Of a DNA stretch of 19,303 bases, positions 10,474-19,000 are shown piece after piece. Position 1 is the first letter of the stretch; each line of letters begins with the position of its first letter. Source of the stretch: a virus; the UHGV virus genome UHGV-0121367. One strand, given 5' to 3'. The notes under the pieces were generated by a model, which did no database searches, was not told where the DNA came from, and saw only the letters and a program-made list of their open reading frames with translations. The translations under genes and the position numbers were made by a program.

Positions 10474-10869
10474 GTGAAAAAAATATTGTTCTCTGGTCTT
10501 GTGGTGCTTGCCACCGCTGGATGTGCTGATAATAGGCCAATGCCGGTATTAGATACTAAGCCTGTCACATGTTCATCAGAGGCTGAATGTAGTTATCTTT
10601 GGTCGAAGGTTCCTCAGCATTTGGAGTTTGCAACAAAAATGAGAGTAGAATCAGCTAACGATACATTTATAACAACATTCCCACCTATTGATACAAGGCA
10701 ACTTGCAGGACGGGCATCTAAGGTTAAACAGTCCGGCGATACGGCAATAAATGCTGAATTCCAATGCCATCGACATTATGGGCAGAAGGATTGTGAAAGG
10801 GCGGTAATTAATGCTACAAATTTCTTTAATCAAGCAATGAGCATTGAAAAGAAACATTTTAATAAATAA
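10474..10869 (+). CDS. Moron-encoded probable outer-membrane lipoprotein of unknown function (131 aa, GTG start)
   Basis: N-terminus MKKILFSGLVVLATAGC has a signal peptide and lipobox-like TAGC. Residue +2 is Ala, so outer-membrane sorting is expected by the E. coli rule. Four further Cys. The gene is clearly AT-richer than its flanks (by eye) and is followed by a strong intrinsic terminator. It is inserted between K and I, which are adjacent in lambda. Confidence 0.7.
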   Translation: MKKILFSGLVVLATAGCADNRPMPVLDTKPVTCSSEAECSYLWSKVPQHLEFATKMRVESANDTFITTFPPIDTRQLAGRASKVKQSGDTAINAEFQCHRHYGQKDCERAVINATNFFNQAMSIEKKHFNK

Positions 10870-10932: not shown

Positions 10933-11520
10933 ATGCAAGAGGTCATGAGTCGAATTGAATTAGGCAGTGTTCTTGGAAAAACGTTTGGCAAAGTTCACTA
11001 CCGTCTGATATCCCGCGTAAGCGAAGCAGGCGTTGCACTCGCAAAAACCATTCCTGGATTTGAGCAGTTTATGATTTCCAGCCAACGCCGTGGGCTCACA
11101 TACTCCGTGTTTAAGGGTAAAAAAAACATCGGTGTGGATGACCTTGGCTTCCCGATTACCGGCGAGGTTATTCGCATTGTTCCGGTAATCATCGGGAGTA
11201 AAAAAGCCGGTTTGATTCAAACTATCCTGGGCGCAGTATTAGTGATTGCATCGATCTGGATGCCAGGTCTGAGTATAGCTGCCAGCAATATGATGTTTGC
11301 TGCTGGTGCGTCCATAACGCTGGGGGGGGTAGTTCAGATGTTATCCCCTCAGGCTACAGGGCTGGCCAGCAAACAGAGCTCAGATAACCGCGCCTCATAC
11401 GCGTTCGGCGGAGTCACAAACACCGCTGCGCAGGGCTACCCGGTACCACTTCTTTATGGTCGCCGGCGAATCGGCGGTGCGATTATTTCTGGCGGGATAT
11501 ATGTCGAAGATCAGCAGTAA
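10933..11520 (+). CDS. I: Tail tip assembly protein I
   Basis: 195-aa ORF. The central and C-terminal parts (hydrophobic Gly/Ala-rich segment ...LGGVVQMLSPQA..., then ...AQGYPVPLLYGRRRIGG...) match lambda gpI. The N-terminus is shorter and divergent. Confidence 0.85.
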   Translation: MQEVMSRIELGSVLGKTFGKVHYRLISRVSEAGVALAKTIPGFEQFMISSQRRGLTYSVFKGKKNIGVDDLGFPITGEVIRIVPVIIGSKKAGLIQTILGAVLVIASIWMPGLSIAASNMMFAAGASITLGGVVQMLSPQATGLASKQSSDNRASYAFGGVTNTAAQGYPVPLLYGRRRIGGAIISGGIYVEDQQ

Positions 11521-11540
11521 GCTAAGTTAAGGAGATGTGT

Positions 11541-11690
11541 ATGTCTTTTGAGTCACGAGTAGAAAAAACTGAAAATGAAACATCTGAAGTTAATGAAACG
11601 GTCCCGCATGAGACCGTAGAGTACGATGCTTCAATGACATTAGGCGTCAATAAGCTTCATATTTTTGACGATGTCTTGAATTTGTGGTGA
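11541..11690 (+). CDS. Small acidic hypothetical protein (49 aa) in the AT-rich I-J island
   Basis: ATG at 11541 with AAGGAG at 11528-11533 (7-nt spacer). Translation MSFESRVEKTENETSEVNETVPHETVEYDASMTLGVNKLHIFDDVLNLW is about 30 percent Asp/Glu. Too short for the ORF track. Its 3' end overlaps the convergent minus-strand ORF by 51 nt. Confidence 0.35.
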   Translation: MSFESRVEKTENETSEVNETVPHETVEYDASMTLGVNKLHIFDDVLNLW

Positions 11691-11855
11691 GTTTGTCTTT
11701 GATAGGATTTCAATAACTTGTTGCCTTGTATCTACTGGCAATGCTGCTGTTAATACCATTGTAACTTGTCTTAGAGCCACAATTTCTAAAGCGATTTCTC
11801 TAGGAATATTTTCGTCAAGAGTAAATCTAAAATCCACGAACTTTTCTTCGATCAT
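11640..11855 (-). CDS. Hypothetical 71-aa protein encoded antisense to the late operon in the I-J island
   Basis: ORF track 11640..11855 (-). ATG preceded by GGAG with a 7-nt spacer on the minus strand. AT-rich codon usage unlike the flanking tail genes. No signal peptide and no family I can recognise. Confidence 0.45.
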   Translation of the reverse strand: MIEEKFVDFRFTLDENIPREIALEIVALRQVTMVLTAALPVDTRQQVIEILSKTNSPQIQDIVKNMKLIDA

Positions 11856-11986
11856 CTTATTACTCCATTTTAACCGGGTACTTCAGCCATCCCTCGGTCA
11901 GTTAACGCCAGAGGCCTACCACTGGCGGGCTGAGCTTACACATTAACCAGGGATTCCTGTTACCAACAGCCTGATATTTAAACAGT

Positions 11987-12010
11987 AGCCGCCTTCGGGT
12001 GGCTTTTTTT
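11987..12010 (+). terminator. Rho-independent terminator on + strand immediately upstream of J
   Basis: Stem agccgcc (11987-11993), loop ttcg, stem ggtggct (11998-12004, one G:U pair), then a T-run 12004-12010. The J start codon is at 12022. Confidence 0.7.
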
Positions 12011-12021
12011 ATGGACGCGAT

Positions 12022-15000
12022 ATGGCTACAGAGAAAGTATTAAAGGGGCGCAAAGGCGGCAAATCCAGTTCACGAACTCCTACCGAACAGCCTGATGATC
12101 TGCAATCTGTAGCGAAGGCAAAAATCCTCGTTGCGCTTGGGGAAGGGGAGTTCGCAGGGCAGCTAACCGGCAAAGATATCTACCTGGACGGAACGGCGCT
12201 GGAGAATGCCGACGGTTCCCAAAACTTCAGCGGCGTGACGTGGGAGTTTCGCGCGGGGACGCAGGCTCAAAAATATATTCAGGGTATTCCCGGTACCGAA
12301 AACGAAATCAGCGTGGGAACTGAGGTATCAAGCGCTACAGCCTGGACGCGCACGTTTACCAATACGCAGCTTTCAGCAGTTCGTCTGCGTCTGAAATGGC
12401 CCTCGCTTTTCAAACAGGAAGACGACGGAGATCTGGTGGGTTACTCGGTCAATTATGCGATTGACCTGCAGACGGACGGCGGCACATGGCAGACGGTACT
12501 CAATACCAGCGTGACCGGCAAAACGACGTCTGGTTATGAGCGCAGCCACCGTATCGATTTACCGCAAGCTGGCAGCACCTGGACAATACGTCTGCGTAAG
12601 ATTACCTCTGATGCCAACAGCGCGAAGATCGGCGACACGATGACGCTGCAGAGCTTCACCGAGGTGATTGACGCCAAGTTACGATATCCAAACACAGCGC
12701 TACTCTACATCGAATTCGATTCAAGTCAGTTTAACGGCTCTATCCCGCAGATCTCCTGCGAGCCCCGCGGCCGTGTTATCCGCGTTCCAGATACCTACGA
12801 CCCTGAAACCCGCACTTATAGCGGTACATGGACCGGTGCGTTTAAGTGGGCATGGACGGATAACCCTGCGTGGATTTTTTACGATCTGGTTGTTTCTGAC
12901 CGGTTCGGCCTCGGGCACCGTTTGACCGCTGCGAATATTGATAAATGGACGCTTTATCAGGTTGCCCAGTATTGTGATCAGATGGTACCAGACGGCAAAG
13001 GGGGCAACGGTACCGAACCACGTTATACCTGCAACGTGTACATCCAGGACCGAAACGACGCTTATACAGTCCTGCGTGATTTTGCGGCCATATTCCGTGG
13101 CATGACGTACTGGGGAGGCGATCAGATCGTTGCTCTGGCCGATATGCCCCGAGATGTTGATTACAGCTACACGCGCGCCAACGTTGTTGGCGGTCGCTTC
13201 ACCTATTCAAGCAGCACCACGAAAACCCGCTACACCACAGCGCTGGTTTCATGGTCAGACCCGGGTAACGCTTATGCCGACGCGATGGAGCCGGTATTTG
13301 AGCAGGCGCTGGTAGCGCGATACGGCTTCAATCAGCTGGAAATGACAGCCATCGGCTGCACCAGGCAGTCAGAAGCGAACCGAAAGGGGCGCTGGGGCAT
13401 TCTCACCAACAACAAGGATCGCGTTGTTTCGTTTGATGTCGGGCTGGACGGAAACATTCCGCAGCCTGGCTACATCATCGCCGTGGAAGACGAGCTGCTT
13501 TCCGGAAAGGTTATGGGCGGCCGCATCAGCGCCGTTAACGGTCGCGTTATCAAACTTGACCGCGTAGCTGATGCAGCACCAGGTGATCGCCTTATTCTCA
13601 ACCTGCCTTCCGGAGCGTCGCAGAGCAGGACCATTCAGGCCGTGAACGGGGAATCAGTCACAGTCACCACGGCATACAGTGAGACGCCACAGGCCGAAGC
13701 TGTTTGGGTGGTTGAATCTGACGAGCTTTACGCGCAGCAATATCGCGTTATCAGCGTTACGGATAATAATGACGGAACGTATTCGATTGCTGGCGCTTTG
13801 CACGATCCGGATAAATATGCGCGTATCGATACCGGTGCCATTATCGACCAGCGGCCAATAAGTGTAATTCCGCCCGGTAATCAGTCCCCGCCAGCTAATA
13901 TCGCGATCAGTTCGTTTTCTGTCGTTCAGCAGAATATCAGCGTTGAGACCATGCGCGTCAGCTGGGACCAGGCGAAAAATGCTATCGCGTATGAGGCACA
14001 GTGGCGTCGCAATGACGGGAACTGGGTGAATGTGCCGCGCAGCTCCACCACGTCATTCGATGTTCCGGGGATTTATGCAGGACGCTACCTGGTTCGCGTG
14101 CGTGCCATCAATGCCGCCGAAATTTCATCTGGGTGGGGCTATTCAGAAGAGAAAACGTTGACGGGTAAAGTGGGAAACCCACCGAAGCCGGTTGGCTTCA
14201 TCGCTTCTGAAAACGTGGTATTCGGTATCGAGCTGAACTGGGGATTCCCGGCGAATACCGAAGACACGCTGAAGACGGAAATTCAGTATAGCCTGACCGG
14301 TACCGAGGACGATGCAATGCTGCTGGCCGATGTGCCTTACCCGCAGCGCAAATATCAGCAGATGGGCCTTAAGGCTGGGCAGATTTTCTGGTACCGCGCG
14401 CAACTTGTTGACCGGACCGGTAACGAATCGGGGTATACCGACTGGGTGCGCGGGCAGGCGAGCACCGATGTTTCAGAAATTACGGATGCAATATTCAAAG
14501 AGATTCAGGAAACAGAGGTTTTCAAAAACCTGATCGCCACTGTAGATGAGGATACCAAAAATATTGCCGAACTGACTGATGCGGTCCGGGAAAATGCCGA
14601 CGCGCTGGCAGCTGCAATTATTGACGGGAAACAAACTGCAGAGGATTTGAAATCCAGTACTGAAAATCTGGCAGCAGCGATTCGTGAAAATGCAGATAGT
14701 CTTGCCGCGGCGGTTTCATCTAACAAACAGACCGCTGAAGCTATTATTGCCAATTCTCTCGCGATTACTGATGTCGTATTGCGTCAGACCGCCCAAAACG
14801 GCGCTAATACGGCGCAATTCGAGCAACTACGGGAAGTTGTAGCGACAGAAACTGAAGCTCGCGTGACCGATGTTACCCGTCTCGAAGCTAAGACGAAGGA
14901 TAACGCGGCGGGCATCACTGAGGTTCGACAAGCACTTGCTGATGAAACTCAAGCCCGCGCAACTGCTGTCGATCAGCTTACTGCTGCTACGGACGCGGCG

Positions 15001-16479
15001 GGTAAGGTTGGCGCACAGAACAGCGCGGATATCACATCACTTACCCAAGTTGTTACAGATAGCACCTCTGCGGCCGCTTCACGATTTGATGAGCTTAGCG
15101 CTGCTACTGCCAGCGCTGCGGGCGGCATTCAGAGTAATGCCATCGCTCTGATTAACAACACGTTAGCTCAGGTTAGCCAGCGCAACACCATGACGGTTCA
15201 GTACCTGGACAACAAGGCCGGGATCGAGCGCACACAGGAAGCCATAGCCAACGAGACCGAAGCCCGTGTTGCTGATGTACTGCGCCTTGAAGCTACTACA
15301 GAGCACAACGCAGCTGATATCATTGAAGTGCGTCAAGCTATGTCTGACGAGTCTCAAGCAGTCGCGACGCGTCTTAATGAACTCAATGCTGCTACTAAGA
15401 CTGCCGACTCTAAAGCGGACGCGGCGGGTAAGGTTGGCGCACAAAATGCAGCGAAAATCACAGCGCTTGAGCAGGTTGTGACAGATACAGAATCAGCTAC
15501 AGCGCTGCGACTCGACGAGCTTTCTGCTGCTACTAAAGCTGCCAGCGATAAAGCAGATGAGGCGGAACAAGCCAGTACTCGCAATGCCGCAGAAATCAGC
15601 GAGTTGGATCAAGTGGTCACGGATTTGGACAGCGCCACAGCGTTACGTTTTGACGAAATCTCAGCAGAAATCGCAGATCAGAGCAGTAATGTGGGCGTCA
15701 TTAAAGGAGGCATTCAGAATAACGCGATTGCAGTAATTCAGCAGACGTTAGCGCAGGTGAATCAGTCGCAGCGAATGAGTGTGCAGTACGGCGACAATAA
15801 AGCAGGGATCGAACGTGTCGATAACGTGATGGCTGATGCAAGCCTGGCTGTGGCTGAGTCACTCAAAACGCTGGATTCAAGTGCAGGAGGTGGTACTGCA
15901 AATACGACTGATTTTGCAAAAACTCTTGCGGATTTCACGCAGGCGTCAGCAACGCGGATTAACTCGCTGACAGTGTCAGTTAATGGGCAGACGACAGTAA
16001 TTGAACAGAACGCACGGGCGGTTGCAGATATCAGCGGAAATCTGAATGCGATGTACAGTATTAAAGTCGCTATCGACTCGAACGGACGGCAATACGCTGC
16101 CGGAATGGGTATCGGAGTCGAAAATACGCCAGCAGGTATGCAGTCGCAGGTGCTGTTCCTGGCTAACCGCTTTGCTGTTATGACTCAGGCCGGTGGTGCG
16201 GTCACGCTGCCATTCGTTATTCAGAATGGCCAGGCCATTATCAGGGATACAGTCATTGGCGACGGGACCATAAGCAATGCAAAAATTGGCAATTACATCC
16301 AGTCGAACAATTATGTTGCCGGCTCTGTTGGCTGGAAACTGGATAAGTCCGGGACGTTTGAGAACTACGGTTCGACAGCTGGGGAGGGAGCCATGAAGCA
16401 GACCAACCAGACAATCAGCGTCAAGGATGGCAACAACGTTCTGAGAGTGCAGGTTGGCCGATTAACGGGGGTGTTCTGA
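12022..16479 (+). CDS. J: Tail tip attachment / host specificity protein J (central tail fibre), enlarged relative to lambda J
   Basis: 1485-aa ORF. The N-terminal two thirds are collinear with lambda gpJ motifs (...YPNTALL...QISCEPRGRVIRVPDTYDPETRTYSGTWTG...YCDQMVPDGKGG...). A long Ala-rich repeat region follows, and the C-terminal region is unlike the lambda LamB-binding end. Confidence 0.95.
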   Translation: MATEKVLKGRKGGKSSSRTPTEQPDDLQSVAKAKILVALGEGEFAGQLTGKDIYLDGTALENADGSQNFSGVTWEFRAGTQAQKYIQGIPGTENEISVGTEVSSATAWTRTFTNTQLSAVRLRLKWPSLFKQEDDGDLVGYSVNYAIDLQTDGGTWQTVLNTSVTGKTTSGYERSHRIDLPQAGSTWTIRLRKITSDANSAKIGDTMTLQSFTEVIDAKLRYPNTALLYIEFDSSQFNGSIPQISCEPRGRVIRVPDTYDPETRTYSGTWTGAFKWAWTDNPAWIFYDLVVSDRFGLGHRLTAANIDKWTLYQVAQYCDQMVPDGKGGNGTEPRYTCNVYIQDRNDAYTVLRDFAAIFRGMTYWGGDQIVALADMPRDVDYSYTRANVVGGRFTYSSSTTKTRYTTALVSWSDPGNAYADAMEPVFEQALVARYGFNQLEMTAIGCTRQSEANRKGRWGILTNNKDRVVSFDVGLDGNIPQPGYIIAVEDELLSGKVMGGRISAVNGRVIKLDRVADAAPGDRLILNLPSGASQSRTIQAVNGESVTVTTAYSETPQAEAVWVVESDELYAQQYRVISVTDNNDGTYSIAGALHDPDKYARIDTGAIIDQRPISVIPPGNQSPPANIAISSFSVVQQNISVETMRVSWDQAKNAIAYEAQWRRNDGNWVNVPRSSTTSFDVPGIYAGRYLVRVRAINAAEISSGWGYSEEKTLTGKVGNPPKPVGFIASENVVFGIELNWGFPANTEDTLKTEIQYSLTGTEDDAMLLADVPYPQRKYQQMGLKAGQIFWYRAQLVDRTGNESGYTDWVRGQASTDVSEITDAIFKEIQETEVFKNLIATVDEDTKNIAELTDAVRENADALAAAIIDGKQTAEDLKSSTENLAAAIRENADSLAAAVSSNKQTAEAIIANSLAITDVVLRQTAQNGANTAQFEQLREVVATETEARVTDVTRLEAKTKDNAAGITEVRQALADETQARATAVDQLTAATDAAGKVGAQNSADITSLTQVVTDSTSAAASRFDELSAATASAAGGIQSNAIALINNTLAQVSQRNTMTVQYLDNKAGIERTQEAIANETEARVADVLRLEATTEHNAADIIEVRQAMSDESQAVATRLNELNAATKTADSKADAAGKVGAQNAAKITALEQVVTDTESATALRLDELSAATKAASDKADEAEQASTRNAAEISELDQVVTDLDSATALRFDEISAEIADQSSNVGVIKGGIQNNAIAVIQQTLAQVNQSQRMSVQYGDNKAGIERVDNVMADASLAVAESLKTLDSSAGGGTANTTDFAKTLADFTQASATRINSLTVSVNGQTTVIEQNARAVADISGNLNAMYSIKVAIDSNGRQYAAGMGIGVENTPAGMQSQVLFLANRFAVMTQAGGAVTLPFVIQNGQAIIRDTVIGDGTISNAKIGNYIQSNNYVAGSVGWKLDKSGTFENYGSTAGEGAMKQTNQTISVKDGNNVLRVQVGRLTGVF
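14584..14745 (+). repeat. Short 96-bp (32-aa) direct repeat in J encoding RENAD(A/S)LAAA...KQTAE
   Basis: cgggaaaatgccgacgcgctggcagctgca at about 14587 and cgtgaaaatgcagatagtcttgccgcggcg at about 14683. Confidence 0.6.
14849..15830 (+). repeat. Diverged in-frame tandem repeats inside J (unit about 405-426 bp, two to three copies)
   Basis: Near-identical 23-mer gcggcgggtaaggttggcgcaca at 14995 and 15421 (period 426 bp). Related blocks gaaactgaagctcgcgtgaccgatgtta (14849) and gagaccgaagcccgtgttgctgatgta (15253). A third partial copy around 15560-15830 repeats the ...IQ(S/N)NAIA(L/V)I..TLAQV.Q...M.VQY.DNKAGIER... module. Confidence 0.8.
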
Positions 16480-16480
16480 T

Positions 16481-16783
16481 ATGGCTTATGGAATACAGAC
16501 CTGGGATGCTTCGGGAAACCCCAACAACTACGGAATCAAGCCCGTTTCCGTTGTTGGACGTATACAACTTGCCGCCGGACAAAACTCCGGCAGCTGGTCT
16601 TTCACTGTACCCTCAGGAATGAAGGTCGGTTTTGCGCTCTCACTTGATGAAGGAGGTAACAGCGTAGGGAGGAGCATTGTCGCGTCAGGGAACACAATAA
16701 CCGTAACCGCAGCCTCTTCTGTGGGCCTGGGTAATTACCCGGCCTCTAAATGTGAGGTGGTCGTTTTCATGGAGAAAGCATAA
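16481..16783 (+). CDS. Hypothetical protein (100 aa) translationally coupled to J, likely tail-associated
   Basis: The start is 2 nt after the J stop. Codon usage is like the flanking structural genes. It shares the motifs G-x-x-x-W-D-A-S-G and S-G-S-W with the downstream ORF. Confidence 0.7.
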   Translation: MAYGIQTWDASGNPNNYGIKPVSVVGRIQLAAGQNSGSWSFTVPSGMKVGFALSLDEGGNSVGRSIVASGNTITVTAASSVGLGNYPASKCEVVVFMEKA

Positions 16784-17457
16784 TGGCCGAATTTGGCGCG
16801 ATGATATTAATGGATAACGGGAATCCCTTTGTAACGCCACAATCAACGCCTTTCTGTCTTTACGGGAAGTATACCTTCAATTCATCCGCGAATGGCAGTT
16901 CTCAGCAGGTTGCTCAAAATATCGCTTTAAACGCTGATTACCCAGTGATGGTTTTTATCAAAACCACCAATACAGCACAGCCCACTCCGGTTATGTCTTA
17001 CAGGAACGGCGGTAATGTGTATGTTGCTGGTGTTAATCCCTACAACCAAAGTTTCACTTTAACGGCGTACGTTTTTGCCATATTCCCGCAGATATTACCG
17101 AAATGGGGTTTGGCAATATGGGATGCGAGCGGAAAGCTTGTGTTAACTAATGAGTCCCGTGTGCTATCAGACCTGCAGACGGTTGGCACGCCTGGTGCAA
17201 ACGGCGGGATAAATATTGACCAGACGCTGAGCGGGTCATGGGCCGTTGCACCTGCTCAGTTGGGTCAGACCATCATTGTGAATAATTCAACCCAGCCTCC
17301 GACTATCTACACGATAAATGCTTATTCTTCATGCAGGTTTGACGGGGCCAATACGAGGATAAACGCAGGGGGGACCTCCACTGGGGCAGGTTCACCTGGA
17401 GGGGGAACGAATACTGGCATTTCATTAACCGCCATAAATACAGCGGCCTATGATTGA
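16783..17457 (+). CDS. Hypothetical protein (224 aa) with Gly-rich C-terminus, apparently built from two copies of the module in the upstream ORF
   Basis: Start overlaps the upstream stop (TAATG). The N-terminus MAEFGAMILMDNGNP parallels MAYGIQTWDASGNP of the preceding ORF. The internal segment KWGLAIWDASGKLV...LSGSWAV repeats the same motif. Confidence 0.72.
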   Translation: MAEFGAMILMDNGNPFVTPQSTPFCLYGKYTFNSSANGSSQQVAQNIALNADYPVMVFIKTTNTAQPTPVMSYRNGGNVYVAGVNPYNQSFTLTAYVFAIFPQILPKWGLAIWDASGKLVLTNESRVLSDLQTVGTPGANGGINIDQTLSGSWAVAPAQLGQTIIVNNSTQPPTIYTINAYSSCRFDGANTRINAGGTSTGAGSPGGGTNTGISLTAINTAAYD

Positions 17458-17507
17458 TTGATCGTTTTTAGCGATCAATAACATAATATTGATCTATCCA
17501 ATCAATT
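17457..17507. promoter_or_regulatory. Operator-like cluster of ATTGAT inverted repeats with three GATC sites, upstream of the small lipoprotein gene
   Basis: attgatcg (17457-17464) and cgatcaat (17472-17479) are perfect 8-bp inverted repeats with a 7-nt spacer. A second pair is attgat (17488-17493) and atcaat (17501-17506). GATC occurs at 17460, 17473 and 17491. The region is AT-rich and intergenic. Confidence 0.45.
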
Positions 17508-17568: not shown

Positions 17569-17802
17569 ATGAGAAAACTGATTATCTGCATGGCAGGCGC
17601 TGTCATGCTTACAGGATGCGCTGGCGTAATTGAGAAACAGGAACCAGTTTGCAGCGGCACTGCAATCGTTGGCGGTCAGGAAACTACGGTTCAGATTTAC
17701 GGTGTGCGTAAACAAAACAACCAGACGCAGTACCGGGCTGGATATCCTTTCAGCTGGCGCTGGGTAAGTGCGAATACATTTACCGAAACAACCTGCAAAT
17801 AA
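17569..17802 (+). CDS. Small outer-membrane lipoprotein (77 aa); candidate Cor/Llp-like superinfection exclusion protein
   Basis: N-terminus MRKLIICMAGAVMLTGC has a canonical lipobox LTGC with Ala at +2. Two further Cys (C28, C76). Size and position (downstream of J, before the tail fibre) match Cor-type exclusion lipoproteins of lambdoid phages. The functional call is inference. Confidence 0.6.
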   Translation: MRKLIICMAGAVMLTGCAGVIEKQEPVCSGTAIVGGQETTVQIYGVRKQNNQTQYRAGYPFSWRWVSANTFTETTCK

Positions 17803-17823
17803 CCCACTACGCTTAAACATAAA

Positions 17824-17846
17824 CCTCGCCCCGGCGGGTTTTTTAT
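17824..17846 (+). terminator. Probable intrinsic terminator after the lipoprotein gene
   Basis: GC-rich imperfect hairpin (cctcgcc / ggcggg) followed by ttttttatt at 17839-17847. Confidence 0.5.
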
Positions 17847-17863
17847 TATCTGGAGAAAATAAA

Positions 17864-19000
17864 ATGATCTATACAACCGGCACTATCGCTGTCAGCGGTA
17901 ATACTCTGACCGGCACCGGAACTAATTTTACTGCTGCGGGTTCATTAATTCGGAACGGCTGCACTGTTATTGCACTGACAAATCCGGCACAGGTATTTCA
18001 GATTACTGCAATTAACAGCGCTACGAGTCTCACTGTAACGCCTGCTGCCAGCCCAGCAATTCCAGCCGGTACGAAATATTCAATTCTGCTGAGTGATAGT
18101 CTGAGCGTTGATGGGCTGGCGCAAGATATTGCCGAGACGTTCACTCTGTACCAGCGCAATATGAGCGGATTCGCTGACGTAATGAACGGCACAGGGGACG
18201 TGACAATTACGATTAACGGTGTGGCTGTGACCGTTCCTGGTCAGAAATCGCTAGCGAAGAAAGGGGCAAATAAGGACATTACGAGCCTGACCGGGTTAAC
18301 TACAGCGCTTAGTATCGCTCAGGGCGGCACCGGTGGCAAAACAGCAGCAGAGGCCCGCACATACCTCGGTTTAGGAAGTAGTGCGACAAAGGATGTCGGA
18401 ACTGCGGCAGGGAATGTTATGCAGGTGGGAGCTTTTGGGGTTGGTGCTGCTCTCGAAAATAAGCCCACAGATGCCAGTTCATCCTTCATCAGTGATGCTG
18501 CTGGCAATACTCTGTGGGCTCCTGCGAATGGCTGTGGGTTTCAGAGTTCCTACACCGAGCAGCGAATTGCGCAGCTGTGGATTACTTACGGTGGTGCGAT
18601 GTTCAGCCGTTTTCTAACAACCACTGATGACCCTCAAACACCAAAATCATCAGTGCCGTGGGCGCAGATGCAGTCTGCAGGTACATCGGACATAAATTTC
18701 AAGAAGGTTACTGGAGAACTTAATTTAGAAGTGTCTCTGGCCAACATCGTGGCAATGGATTTTAAGACCTTCTACTACCTTGCTGATGAAGAGAAAACGA
18801 TACGCCGAGGTGTTGTTGCTCAGGAACTGGAAAAGATAGATCCGCAATATGTTCACTCGGCTGAGGAGTCGGGGAAAATGACCCTAGACCTCAATCCTCT
18901 GGTGCTCGATGCGCTGGCGGCAATCAAAGAGCTGGCAATCCGCGTCAGCGCATTAGAGGGCGACGCTAAATCTCCGGCTTCTGGCTCATCCGCTGGTTAA
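17864..19000 (+). CDS. Tail fibre protein with a C-terminal intramolecular chaperone (Peptidase S74-like auto-cleaving) domain
   Basis: ATG at 17864 preceded by GGAG at 17852-17855. The upstream ATG at 17768 would overlap the lipoprotein gene and terminator. The C-terminal approximately 100 aa carry S74-type hallmarks: GTSDINFKK (Ser-Asp...Lys at the predicted cleavage site, Ser about residue 275), RRGVVAQELEKIDPQYV, and a terminal helical ...LDALAAIKELAIRVSALE. Confidence 0.82.
   Translation: MIYTTGTIAVSGNTLTGTGTNFTAAGSLIRNGCTVIALTNPAQVFQITAINSATSLTVTPAASPAIPAGTKYSILLSDSLSVDGLAQDIAETFTLYQRNMSGFADVMNGTGDVTITINGVAVTVPGQKSLAKKGANKDITSLTGLTTALSIAQGGTGGKTAAEARTYLGLGSSATKDVGTAAGNVMQVGAFGVGAALENKPTDASSSFISDAAGNTLWAPANGCGFQSSYTEQRIAQLWITYGGAMFSRFLTTTDDPQTPKSSVPWAQMQSAGTSDINFKKVTGELNLEVSLANIVAMDFKTFYYLADEEKTIRRGVVAQELEKIDPQYVHSAEESGKMTLDLNPLVLDALAAIKELAIRVSALEGDAKSPASGSSAG

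What the first reader, a model, noticed from the sequence alone, without database searches (positions are those of the whole stretch)
16481..17457. Two translationally coupled post-J genes built from about three copies of a 100-aa module sharing W-D-A-S-G, G-N-P and S-G-S-W motifs
Lambda has lom, stf and tfa after J. Here J is followed by a 100-aa and a 224-aa ORF with 2-nt and 1-nt junctions, the second ending in a Gly-rich tail. The short protein and both halves of the long one share motif order, which suggests serial duplication. Tight coupling to J and structural-gene-like codon usage point to tail-tip accessory proteins, but I cannot assign a family.
Basis: partly seen in the sequence, partly recalled or inferred. 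Interest (0 to 1): 0.5.

Follow-up and report, generated by a model that had tools for sequence, protein, structure and literature searches.

The report
Phage FhuA receptor-binding gene pair
The two small genes after the tail-tip gene J are the known phi80/T1/N15 "gp22-gp23" pair, most likely the module that caps the tail tip and binds the host FhuA protein, and they are indeed built from three diverged copies of one ~100-residue beta-sandwich unit.

Summary
The ORFs exist as described: J, a 100-aa ORF and a 224-aa ORF, tightly coupled. They are 99-100% identical to phage mEp237 and 88% (DNA) to phi80 genes 22/23. They belong to PHROG 557 and 425 and have no Pfam, NCBIfam or PDB sequence match.

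The three-module idea fails by BLASTP but holds by profile comparison. A gp22 family profile hits gp23 twice, in register: residues 107-202 (E 6e-6) and 1-100 (E 1e-4). None of 150 column shuffles reached either score.

The pair always travels with J. It occurs in phages shown to need FhuA (T1, phi80, JLBYU37/41/60, Teewinot, Bas03, Bas05) and is followed here by cor, the FhuA-blocking exclusion lipoprotein. LamB-dependent HK97 lacks the pair.

BtuB- and YncD-specific loci carry remote homologues with the same 1+2 layout. LptD-type RBPs are single chains of similar total length.

Best reading: gp23 is the FhuA-binding RBP on the J tip, and gp22 is a conserved adaptor or partner. The locus type is published, so novelty is low. 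The triplication and the homology between receptor alleles were not described in the papers I read. Virion location and FhuA binding are inferred.

The parts
12022..16479 (+). J-like central tail fibre / tip attachment protein (1485 aa)
   Evidence: Pfam FNIII-A_GpJ (1e-50) and Phage_Tail_Tip (8e-48, aa 1327-1462). The C-terminal 195 aa are 46% identical to T1 J through to the last residue.
16372..16476 (+). Last ~35 aa of J (STAGEGAMKQTNQTISVKDGNNVLRVQVGRLTGVF): allele-specific tip, the likely docking site for the downstream proteins
   Evidence: Conserved with T1 J, which carries the FhuA allele. Similarity to Rtp J, which carries the LptD allele, ends just before this stretch. The 2026 preprint independently flags the GpJ C-terminal tip as associated with specificity.
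16481..16783 (+). gp22-like protein (100 aa): one Ig-like beta-sandwich module, the conserved partner of the RBP
   Evidence: phrog_557 at 3e-36. 100% identical to mEp237 and 94% to HK022. AF2 pLDDT 85 with seven strands from residue 23; the conserved N-terminal 20 aa are low-confidence. The stop codon overlaps the start of the next gene.
16490..16534 (+). Module-start hairpin motif of gp22 (GIQTWDASGNPNNYG, aa 4-18)
   Evidence: Invariant or nearly invariant G4, W8, D9, G12, N15, N16 and G18 in 120 homologues. The same motif type opens gp23 aa 5-15 and aa 109-119.
16783..17100 (+). gp23-like protein, N-terminal module (aa 1-106)
   Evidence: The gp22 profile aligns 1-98 to 1-100 at E 1e-4, with 0 of 150 shuffles reaching the score. 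The strand pattern matches gp22. Residues 1-30 are conserved and 31-90 are variable.
17101..17457 (+). gp23-like protein, C-terminal module (aa 107-224) with a variable Gly-rich loop and a conserved C-terminal strand
17458..17487 (+). Promoter-like site upstream of cor (TTGATC-18-CATAAT)
   Evidence: Consensus scan only. phi80 has an annotated cor promoter at the equivalent place.
17569..17802 (+). cor, the FhuA-directed superinfection-exclusion lipoprotein (77 aa), cognate to the RBP allele
   Evidence: NCBIfam lamb_exclu_cor at 9e-42. phrog_1119 at 7e-37. Lipobox LTGC and a hydrophobic N-terminus. GC 42% against about 51% in J and gp22.
17825..17848 (+). Terminator-like hairpin with a T run after cor
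   Evidence: phi80 has an annotated terminator at the same place.
17864..19000 (+). Side tail fibre (context; probable start at Met33 of the listed ORF)
   Evidence: phrog_1980 at 1e-69, with matches starting at residue 33. Peptidase_S74 chaperone domain at aa 307-362.

Best explanation
The two genes are the receptor-recognition module of a phi80/T1/N15-type tail tip. They are made late, together with J, by translational coupling. gp23 (224 aa, two fused beta-sandwich modules) caps the distal end of the trimeric J fibre and binds the outer-membrane transporter FhuA. gp22 (100 aa, one module of the same ancestry) is a conserved structural partner. Most likely it is an adaptor between the allele-specific last ~35 residues of J and gp23. 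The conserved N-terminal hairpins of both proteins, which are disordered in isolation, serve as docking elements. The next gene, cor, is the matching exclusion lipoprotein that inactivates FhuA in lysogens.

Shown here:
- gene anatomy and coupling;
- family membership;
- homology of the three modules;
- fold similarity to a solved RBP;
- strict linkage to J and co-occurrence with FhuA dependence;
- homology to the BtuB and YncD alleles.

Inferred: presence in the virion, binding to J, binding to FhuA, and the role of gp22.
For: 1. Identity. The DNA is 99% identical to mEp237, HK225 and HK140, and 88% to phi80 genes 22(100)/23(224). The proteins match phrog_557 and phrog_425 over their full length.

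3. Linkage. gp22-like and gp23-like genes are found in 346 and 350 phage records with the same taxon breakdown. In the six FhuA-type loci fetched they sit directly after J.

4. Receptor correlation. The pair is present in phages with experimentally shown FhuA dependence: T1, phi80, JLBYU37/41/60 and Teewinot (PMC10373560), and JulesPiccard and PeterMerian (Maffei S5 table; hits H122 and H124). Cor acting on FhuA is documented for HK022, N15 and phi80 (PMC3594210). LamB-dependent HK97 has J-stf-tfa with no pair and no cor. Rtp, whose locus type is LptD-linked (receptor predicted, not shown; PMC8594841), FritzSarasin (BtuB) and IsaakIselin (YncD) carry other alleles.

5. Allelic series. The BtuB-locus proteins match the gp22 and gp23 profiles at E 7.7e-8 and 2.2e-10. 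The YncD-locus proteins match at 4.2e-5 and 3.2e-3. Each locus has its own small secreted or lipoprotein gene.

6. RBP-like variability. gp23 has two hypervariable blocks (31-90 and 161-210) between conserved blocks. gp22 is more conserved than gp23 in every phage compared.

7. The J tail co-varies with the allele.

8. Neither protein has a signal peptide or a transmembrane-like segment, and the pair occurs in strictly virulent phages.

9. Published models agree. AF2-Multimer places the 'hand-like' homologue on the J tip and on FhuA (PMC12309495). The 2026 preprint names a FhuA-specific RBP family at this locus, with accessory proteins.
Against: - There is no experimental evidence, here or in the papers read, that either protein is in virions or binds FhuA or J.
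- The T1 cryo-EM study did not resolve J beyond residue 820 and does not mention gp31 or gp32 (PMC11945409).
- Lewis et al. treated J itself as the RBP.
- The role of gp22 is undetermined. Published multimer models could not decide where it sits.
- The receptor of the many Klebsiella weberviruses that carry the pair is not known to me.
Confidence: 0.66

Rival explanations
1. J itself binds FhuA through its distal domain. gp22 and gp23 are non-virion assembly factors (chaperones, like lambda Tfa or T4 gp38-type helpers) needed only to fold or trim the J tip.
For: Lewis et al. list J as the RBP of the FhuA-dependent phages. The pair is tightly coupled to J. gp22 is small and highly conserved. 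No virion proteomics supports their presence.
Confidence: 0.14
2. gp23 is the RBP, but gp22 is a chaperone or a transient assembly factor rather than a virion adaptor.
For: AF2-Multimer models in PMC12309495 preferred capping of the J tip by the hand-like protein alone. gp22 shows low variability.
Against: gp22 is homologous to the RBP's own modules. LptD-type RBPs of about the summed length are single chains. A 13-kDa band was seen in Littlefixvirus virions, but it was not identified.
Confidence: 0.25
3. Two alternative tips: gp22 trimers and gp23 monomers cap different virions and recognise different receptors (hypothesis 1 of Matusiak et al.).
For: Proposed from multimer modelling. gp22-like proteins were described there as resembling the lambda J Ig-like domain.
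Confidence: 0.07
4. They are membrane proteins or morons acting in the host envelope, as the PHROG and RefSeq names 'outer membrane protein' and 'membrane associated protein' suggest.
For: Database names only.
Against: Neither has a signal peptide, lipobox or hydrophobic segment: the maximum 19-aa Kyte-Doolittle mean is 1.14-1.18, against 2.02 for cor. Both are coupled to J in the late operon, have a GC content like J, and occur in virulent T1-like phages. Membrane-affinity estimates in PMC12309495 are low.
Confidence: 0.03

Closest known systems
phi80 gp22/gp23, N15 gp22/gp23, T1 gp32/gp31 and the HK022 homologues (PHROG 557 and 425)
   Same: Same two genes in the same order and with the same lengths, directly after J and, in the lambdoid, N15 and T1 cases, next to cor. 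Identity is 100% to mEp237. Protein identities (gp22/gp23) are 94/80% to HK022, 78/65% to N15 and 57/53% to T1; phi80 is 88% identical at the DNA level.
   Different: Nothing substantive. Here J is longer (1485 aa, against 1159 in phi80 and 1172 in T1). The function of the family has never been shown experimentally.
LptD-binding RBP of phages Oekolampad and Rtp (RBPOeko, Rtp44; PDB 9RPT)
   Different: It is a single chain, not a 1+2 split. It binds a different receptor. Sequence-profile similarity is only marginal (E 1e-3 and 2.6e-3 in two registers one module apart). Its internal thirds are not significantly alike.
BtuB- and YncD-specific RBP loci of Drexlerviridae (FritzSarasin bas04_0024/0023; IsaakIselin bas10_0026/0025)
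   Same: Same 1+2 architecture (92+204 aa and 101+217 aa). Profile homology to gp22 (E 7.7e-8 and 4.2e-5) and to gp23 (E 2.2e-10 and 3.2e-3). Each has its own small secreted or lipoprotein gene.
   Different: They are transcribed convergently with J rather than coupled to it. They are invisible or borderline by pairwise BLAST. They are linked to different receptors.
T5 pb5 with Llp
   Same: Works alike: a dedicated, non-covalently attached RBP at the tip of a trimeric central fibre binds FhuA, and a lipoprotein blocks FhuA in infected cells (PMC9586334, as cited).
   Different: No sequence or fold match was found. pb5 is about three times larger and is encoded elsewhere in the genome.
Lambda J C-terminal receptor-binding domain, and lom/stf/tfa
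   Same: Same position at the end of the tail operon. Receptor recognition takes place at the distal end of J.
   Different: In lambda the receptor-binding domain is part of J. HK97, which is lambda-like and uses LamB, has no gp22/gp23. There is no similarity to Lom, Stf or Tfa.

Membership tests
phi80/N15 gp23 family (PHROG 425) | Full-length profile match | tested here: met
   E 1.3e-80, residues 1-224 against profile 1-224/224. 202 homologues found; 100% identical to mEp237.
phi80/N15 gp22 family (PHROG 557) | Full-length profile match | tested here: met
   E 3.1e-36, residues 1-99 against profile 1-100/100. 160 homologues found. An exhaustive HMM search found 72 representative clusters, nearly all stand-alone proteins of about 100 aa.
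FhuA allele of the 'bona fide RBP locus' downstream of gpJ (Maffei 2021) | Located directly downstream of a gpJ homologue | tested here: met
   1-nt spacer after the J stop codon. Same arrangement in T1, phi80, Klebsiella, Erwinia, Pantoea and Serratia phages.
FhuA allele of the 'bona fide RBP locus' downstream of gpJ (Maffei 2021) | Cognate superinfection-exclusion gene adjacent | tested here: met
   cor at 17569-17802, NCBIfam equivalog at 9e-42.
FhuA allele of the 'bona fide RBP locus' downstream of gpJ (Maffei 2021) | The allele is shared with phages of experimentally determined FhuA dependence and is absent from phages using other receptors | tested here: met
   Present in T1, phi80, JLBYU37/41/60, Teewinot, JulesPiccard and PeterMerian. 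HK97 (LamB), Rtp (LptD-type locus, receptor predicted), FritzSarasin (BtuB) and IsaakIselin (YncD) have no pair or a different allele.
FhuA allele of the 'bona fide RBP locus' downstream of gpJ (Maffei 2021) | The protein is in the virion and binds FhuA | not testable with these tools
   No experiment was found in the literature searched. The T1 tip was not resolved.
Oekolampad/Rtp44-type RBP fold (PDB 9RPT chain C) | Structural similarity of the whole protein | tested here: met
Oekolampad/Rtp44-type RBP fold (PDB 9RPT chain C) | Sequence-level homology | tested here: inconclusive
   hhalign of gp23 against an 8-sequence Rtp44 family profile gives E 1e-3 and 2.6e-3. gp22 against the third module gives E 5e-3.
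Outer-membrane / membrane-associated protein (database name) | Signal peptide, lipobox or membrane-spanning segment | tested here: not met
   The N-termini MAYGIQTWDASG and MAEFGAMILMDNG are not signal-like. The maximum 19-aa hydropathy is 1.14 and 1.18. No formal signal-peptide predictor was available.
Lambda Lom / Stf / Tfa | Pfam or PHROG match to those families | tested here: not met
   No such matches for either protein.
   gp22-gp23C E 5.8e-6 and gp22-gp23N E 1e-4, with 0 of 150 shuffles reaching either score. gp23N-gp23C reaches only E 0.015 directly.

The most novel reading that the evidence does not exclude
All RBP alleles found beside J in small siphophages descend from one ~100-residue Ig-like module by serial duplication. 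The FhuA, BtuB and YncD alleles would be 1+2 splits, and the LptD allele a single three-module chain. On this reading the families recently called 'unrelated' form one superfamily. The three modules (gp22 plus the two halves of gp23) would form a pseudo-threefold cap. Each module's N-terminal hairpin would dock on one chain of the trimeric J tip. This would resolve the mismatch between a threefold fibre and a monomeric receptor.
Probability: 0.25. Interest if true: 0.6.

Novelty: already known. Interest (0 to 1): 0.4.

Why it matters
T1 and phi80 are classical FhuA/TonB-dependent phages, yet the protein that actually touches FhuA has never been demonstrated. This locus is the best candidate. 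Two features make it attractive for predicting receptors from genomes and for engineering receptor swaps: the modular 1+2 (or 3-in-1) build, and the allelic series covering FhuA, BtuB, YncD and probably LptD. For annotation, the names 'outer membrane protein' and 'membrane associated protein' that these genes carry in PHROGs and RefSeq are almost certainly wrong.

Tried and rejected
- **Family and PDB sequence searches:** Pfam and NCBIfam found nothing above noise for either protein. PDB sequence searches found only noise.
- **Pairwise BLASTP between the segments:** essentially negative.
- **First profile comparison:** with low-diversity alignments it detected only the 12-residue N-terminal motif. 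Diversity had to be added from the exhaustive search and from phage loci.
- **Exhaustive HMM search with gp22:** it did not reach gp23-like proteins. Its long hits are tandem bacterial Ig-like adhesins (Big_13, Big_12, Kre9_KNH), which says only that the module is Ig-like.
- **Third homologue search, with a diverse gp23 alignment:** the listed hits added no new diversity.
- **Foldseek of gp22 against BFVD:** nothing significant.
- **gp22 profile against the J C-terminus:** not significant (E 0.088), despite the look-alike GWKLDKSGTFENYG.
- **Internal thirds of Rtp44:** not significantly alike (E 0.2-0.3).
- **Search for virion proteomics:** the one T1-like data set found (Sfin-1) carries the LptD-type locus and is uninformative.
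- **First literature search on gp22/gp23/phi80:** returned only irrelevant papers.
- **Membrane-protein and moron readings:** rejected.

Full report
**What is there.** The window is the late (head and tail) operon of a lambdoid phage or prophage. It encodes the head protease/scaffold, decoration and major head proteins; FI, the head-closure (FII-like) protein, Z, U, V, G, T, H, M, L, K and I; and then a 1485-aa J protein. J ends at 16479. One base later a 100-aa ORF starts (16481-16783). Its TAA stop overlaps the ATG of a 224-aa ORF (16783-17457). After a 111-nt spacer with a promoter-like site comes cor (17569-17802; NCBIfam equivalog at 9e-42). A terminator-like hairpin follows, then a side tail fibre with a Peptidase_S74 chaperone domain. 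GC content is about 51% in J and gp22, 44-53% in gp23, and 42% over cor.

**Identity.** The 1.6 kb around the finding is 99% identical to phages mEp237, HK225 and HK140, and 88% to phi80. In phi80 the genes are annotated gene 22 (100) and gene 23 (224). The proteins match PHROG 557 and PHROG 425 over their full length (3e-36 and 1e-80). These PHROGs carry the names 'outer membrane protein' and 'membrane associated protein'. There is no Pfam, NCBIfam or PDB sequence match. Homologues number 160 and 202 in the large protein collection. They occur in 346 and 350 phage records with the same taxon breakdown: coliphages of the T1, Dhillonvirus, N15, HK022 and phi80 types, Klebsiella weberviruses, and Erwinia, Pantoea and Serratia phages. 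In every FhuA-type locus I opened, the order is J, then a ~100-aa gene, then a ~220-aa gene.

**The three-module claim.** Pairwise BLASTP sees only YGIQTWDASG/WGLAIWDASG (E 0.029), and nothing between the halves of gp23. With shallow alignments hhalign saw only that 12-residue motif. I then enlarged the gp22 alignment with representatives from an exhaustive HMM search. I also added divergent phage copies to both alignments.

- The gp22 profile (Neff 4.4) now hits gp23 twice, without overlap and in register: 107-202 (E 5.8e-6 against the C half, 1.3e-5 against the whole protein) and 1-100 (E 1e-4 and 7e-4). The third-best alignment is noise (E 0.41).
- Column-shuffled controls gave mean scores of 11.9 and 10.7 and maxima of 26.7 and 20.2, against observed scores of 35.5 and 28.2. 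That is 0 of 150 in each case. Reversed profiles scored 12.7 and 8.7.
- The direct comparison of the N and C halves remains weak (E 0.015).
- The AF2 models were made independently of these alignments: gp22 with pLDDT 85, and gp23 with pLDDT 89 and pTM 0.86. Their strands line up in the profile alignments. Agreement peaks at shift 0 (72%) for the gp22-gp23C alignment and at shifts 0 to +1 (71-73%) for gp22-gp23N, against about 50% off register.
- Each module opens with an aromatic-G-h-x-h-x-D/N-x-x-G hairpin.

It is visible only at the profile level, and the link between the two halves of gp23 runs through gp22.

**Link to the receptor.** Maffei et al. showed that allelic 'bona fide RBP loci' directly downstream of gpJ match the terminal receptor in Drexlerviridae, Dhillonvirus and Queuovirinae. 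These loci usually sit next to a cognate exclusion gene (PMC8594841). A 2026 preprint confirmed this with 1,050 genetic screens. It named four 'unrelated' RBP families, for FhuA, BtuB, LptD and YncD, plus one or two accessory proteins. Matusiak et al. modelled the JLBYU60 homologues as a small Ig-like protein and a 'hand-like' protein. They found the latter docking on the J tip and on FhuA (PMC12309495). The LptD-type RBP is the only one verified by structure (PMC12685063).

- Phages with experimental FhuA dependence all carry the window's pair: T1, phi80, JLBYU37/41/60, Teewinot, JulesPiccard (Bas03) and PeterMerian (Bas05).
- Cor of HK022, N15 and phi80 inactivates FhuA (PMC3594210).
- LamB-dependent HK97 has J-stf-tfa and neither the pair nor cor.
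- The last ~35 residues of J are conserved with T1 J but not with Rtp J. This agrees with the preprint's finding that the GpJ tip is associated with specificity.
- Within the FhuA allele, gp23 has two variable blocks (31-90 and 161-210) flanked by conserved ones. gp22 is always the more conserved of the two in the same phage.

**Relation to the other alleles.** I fetched a BtuB locus (FritzSarasin) and a YncD locus (IsaakIselin).

- Both encode a ~95-aa and a ~210-aa protein plus a small secreted or lipoprotein gene, on the strand opposite to J.
- The BtuB proteins match the gp22 and gp23 profiles at E 7.7e-8 and 2.2e-10. The gp23 match is full length and shares the ..INxxxYD end.
- The YncD proteins match at 4.2e-5 and 3.2e-3 and carry WDASGN and FDASGNLVW motifs.
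- By pairwise BLAST these relationships are absent or borderline. That explains why they were called unrelated.
- LptD-type RBPs (Rtp44 and relatives, 311-324 aa; the Kuravirus relative is 343 aa) are single chains. Several are encoded immediately after J with no gp22-like gene.
- Rtp44 shows the hairpin motif at residues 4, 116 and 210. gp23 aligns to that family in two registers one module apart (E 1e-3 and 2.6e-3). The Rtp44 thirds are not significantly alike among themselves, and gp22 matches only weakly.
- Summed lengths are similar: 324, 296 and 318 aa for the split alleles, against 311-324 aa for the single chains.

The homology of the FhuA, BtuB and YncD pairs is well supported. Inclusion of the LptD type rests on fold similarity plus marginal sequence signals.

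**Mechanism proposed.** J, gp22 and gp23 are made together late in infection. gp23 caps the J fibre and binds FhuA. gp22 is a conserved partner and most likely an adaptor. Its homology to the RBP's own modules and the existence of single-chain equivalents argue for this. The conserved but isolated-disordered N-terminal hairpins are the likely docking elements. cor is expressed from its own promoter in lysogens and shuts FhuA to related phages. The anatomy, homology, fold and correlations are shown. The virion location, the contacts with J and FhuA, and the role of gp22 are inferred. The T1 cryo-EM study could not see this part of the tail, and I found no informative proteomics.

**Verdict.** The genes are not new. 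They are identical to those of sequenced phages and belong to a published type of locus, so the feature is already known as a kind. The triplicated module and the homology between receptor alleles go beyond the papers I read. These points are modest but useful, and the experimental question of whether this pair is the FhuA-binding tip of T1/phi80-type phages remains open and testable.

Noticed in passing
window 10474-10869 (+): A 131-aa ORF with a lipoprotein signal (MKKILFSGLVVLATAGC, GTG start) sits between the K-like and I-like tail genes. It matches only phrog_16082, of unknown function. It looks like a moron inserted in the tail operon.
   Followed up: no
window 11520-12022: There is a ~500-nt gap between I and J, with small ORFs on both strands (11535-11690 on +, 11640-11855 on -). 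HK97 carries a forward moron and a reverse moron at the same position.
   Followed up: partly
window ~14500-15900 (J aa ~830-1290): J is 1485 aa, against 1159 in phi80 and 1172 in T1. By eye the extra length appears to be Ala/Thr/Glu-rich, repeated coiled-coil-like segments (recurring ..AGKVGAQN.A.IT.L.QVVTD..SA.A.R.DELSAAT..). This suggests a fibre extended by internal repeats.
   Followed up: no
window 16318-16362 (J aa ~1433-1447): The J C-terminus contains VGWKLDKSGTFENYG, which resembles the module-start motif GIQTWDASGNPNNYG of gp22. The profile comparison was not significant (E 0.088).
   Followed up: yes
window 17768-19000: The listed side-tail-fibre ORF starts at a GTG that overlaps cor, but all family matches begin at Met33 (17864). 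The real start is probably there, after the cor terminator.
   Followed up: partly
proteins P0247, P0252, P0274, P0289 and others: The gp22 profile collects many weak repeats in giant bacterial adhesins made of Big_13, Big_12 and Kre9_KNH Ig-like domains. This suggests that the module's core (..SGSWSFTVP.G..) is of the bacterial Ig-like type.
   Followed up: partly
L013 1402-2433 (Escherichia phage ES17, Kuravirus) and other Kuravirus records: Podoviruses of the Kuravirus genus encode a distant Rtp44-type (LptD-type RBP) homologue next to a tail fibre gene (22-25% identity). The RBP family is therefore not confined to siphoviruses.
   Followed up: no
phage records: Eight 'Campylobacter phage' records and a 'Pseudomonas phage Motto' record carry coliphage T1/Hanrivervirus-like copies of the pair at 60-70% identity to the window. 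These are probably mislabelled hosts or contaminating coliphages.
   Followed up: no
proteins P0284 and P0255: These are chimeric gene calls. P0284 joins the first ~37 residues of a gp22-like protein to the middle of a side-tail-fibre protein. P0255 joins the J C-terminus to gp22. They could be deletion or recombination variants, or frameshifted assemblies.
   Followed up: no
L018 5777-6046 (-) and L017 6099-6431 (-): The BtuB locus carries an 89-aa lipoprotein (..ALTGC..) and the YncD locus a 110-aa secreted protein beside their RBP pairs. Both are probably allele-specific exclusion factors analogous to Cor and Rtp45.
   Followed up: no
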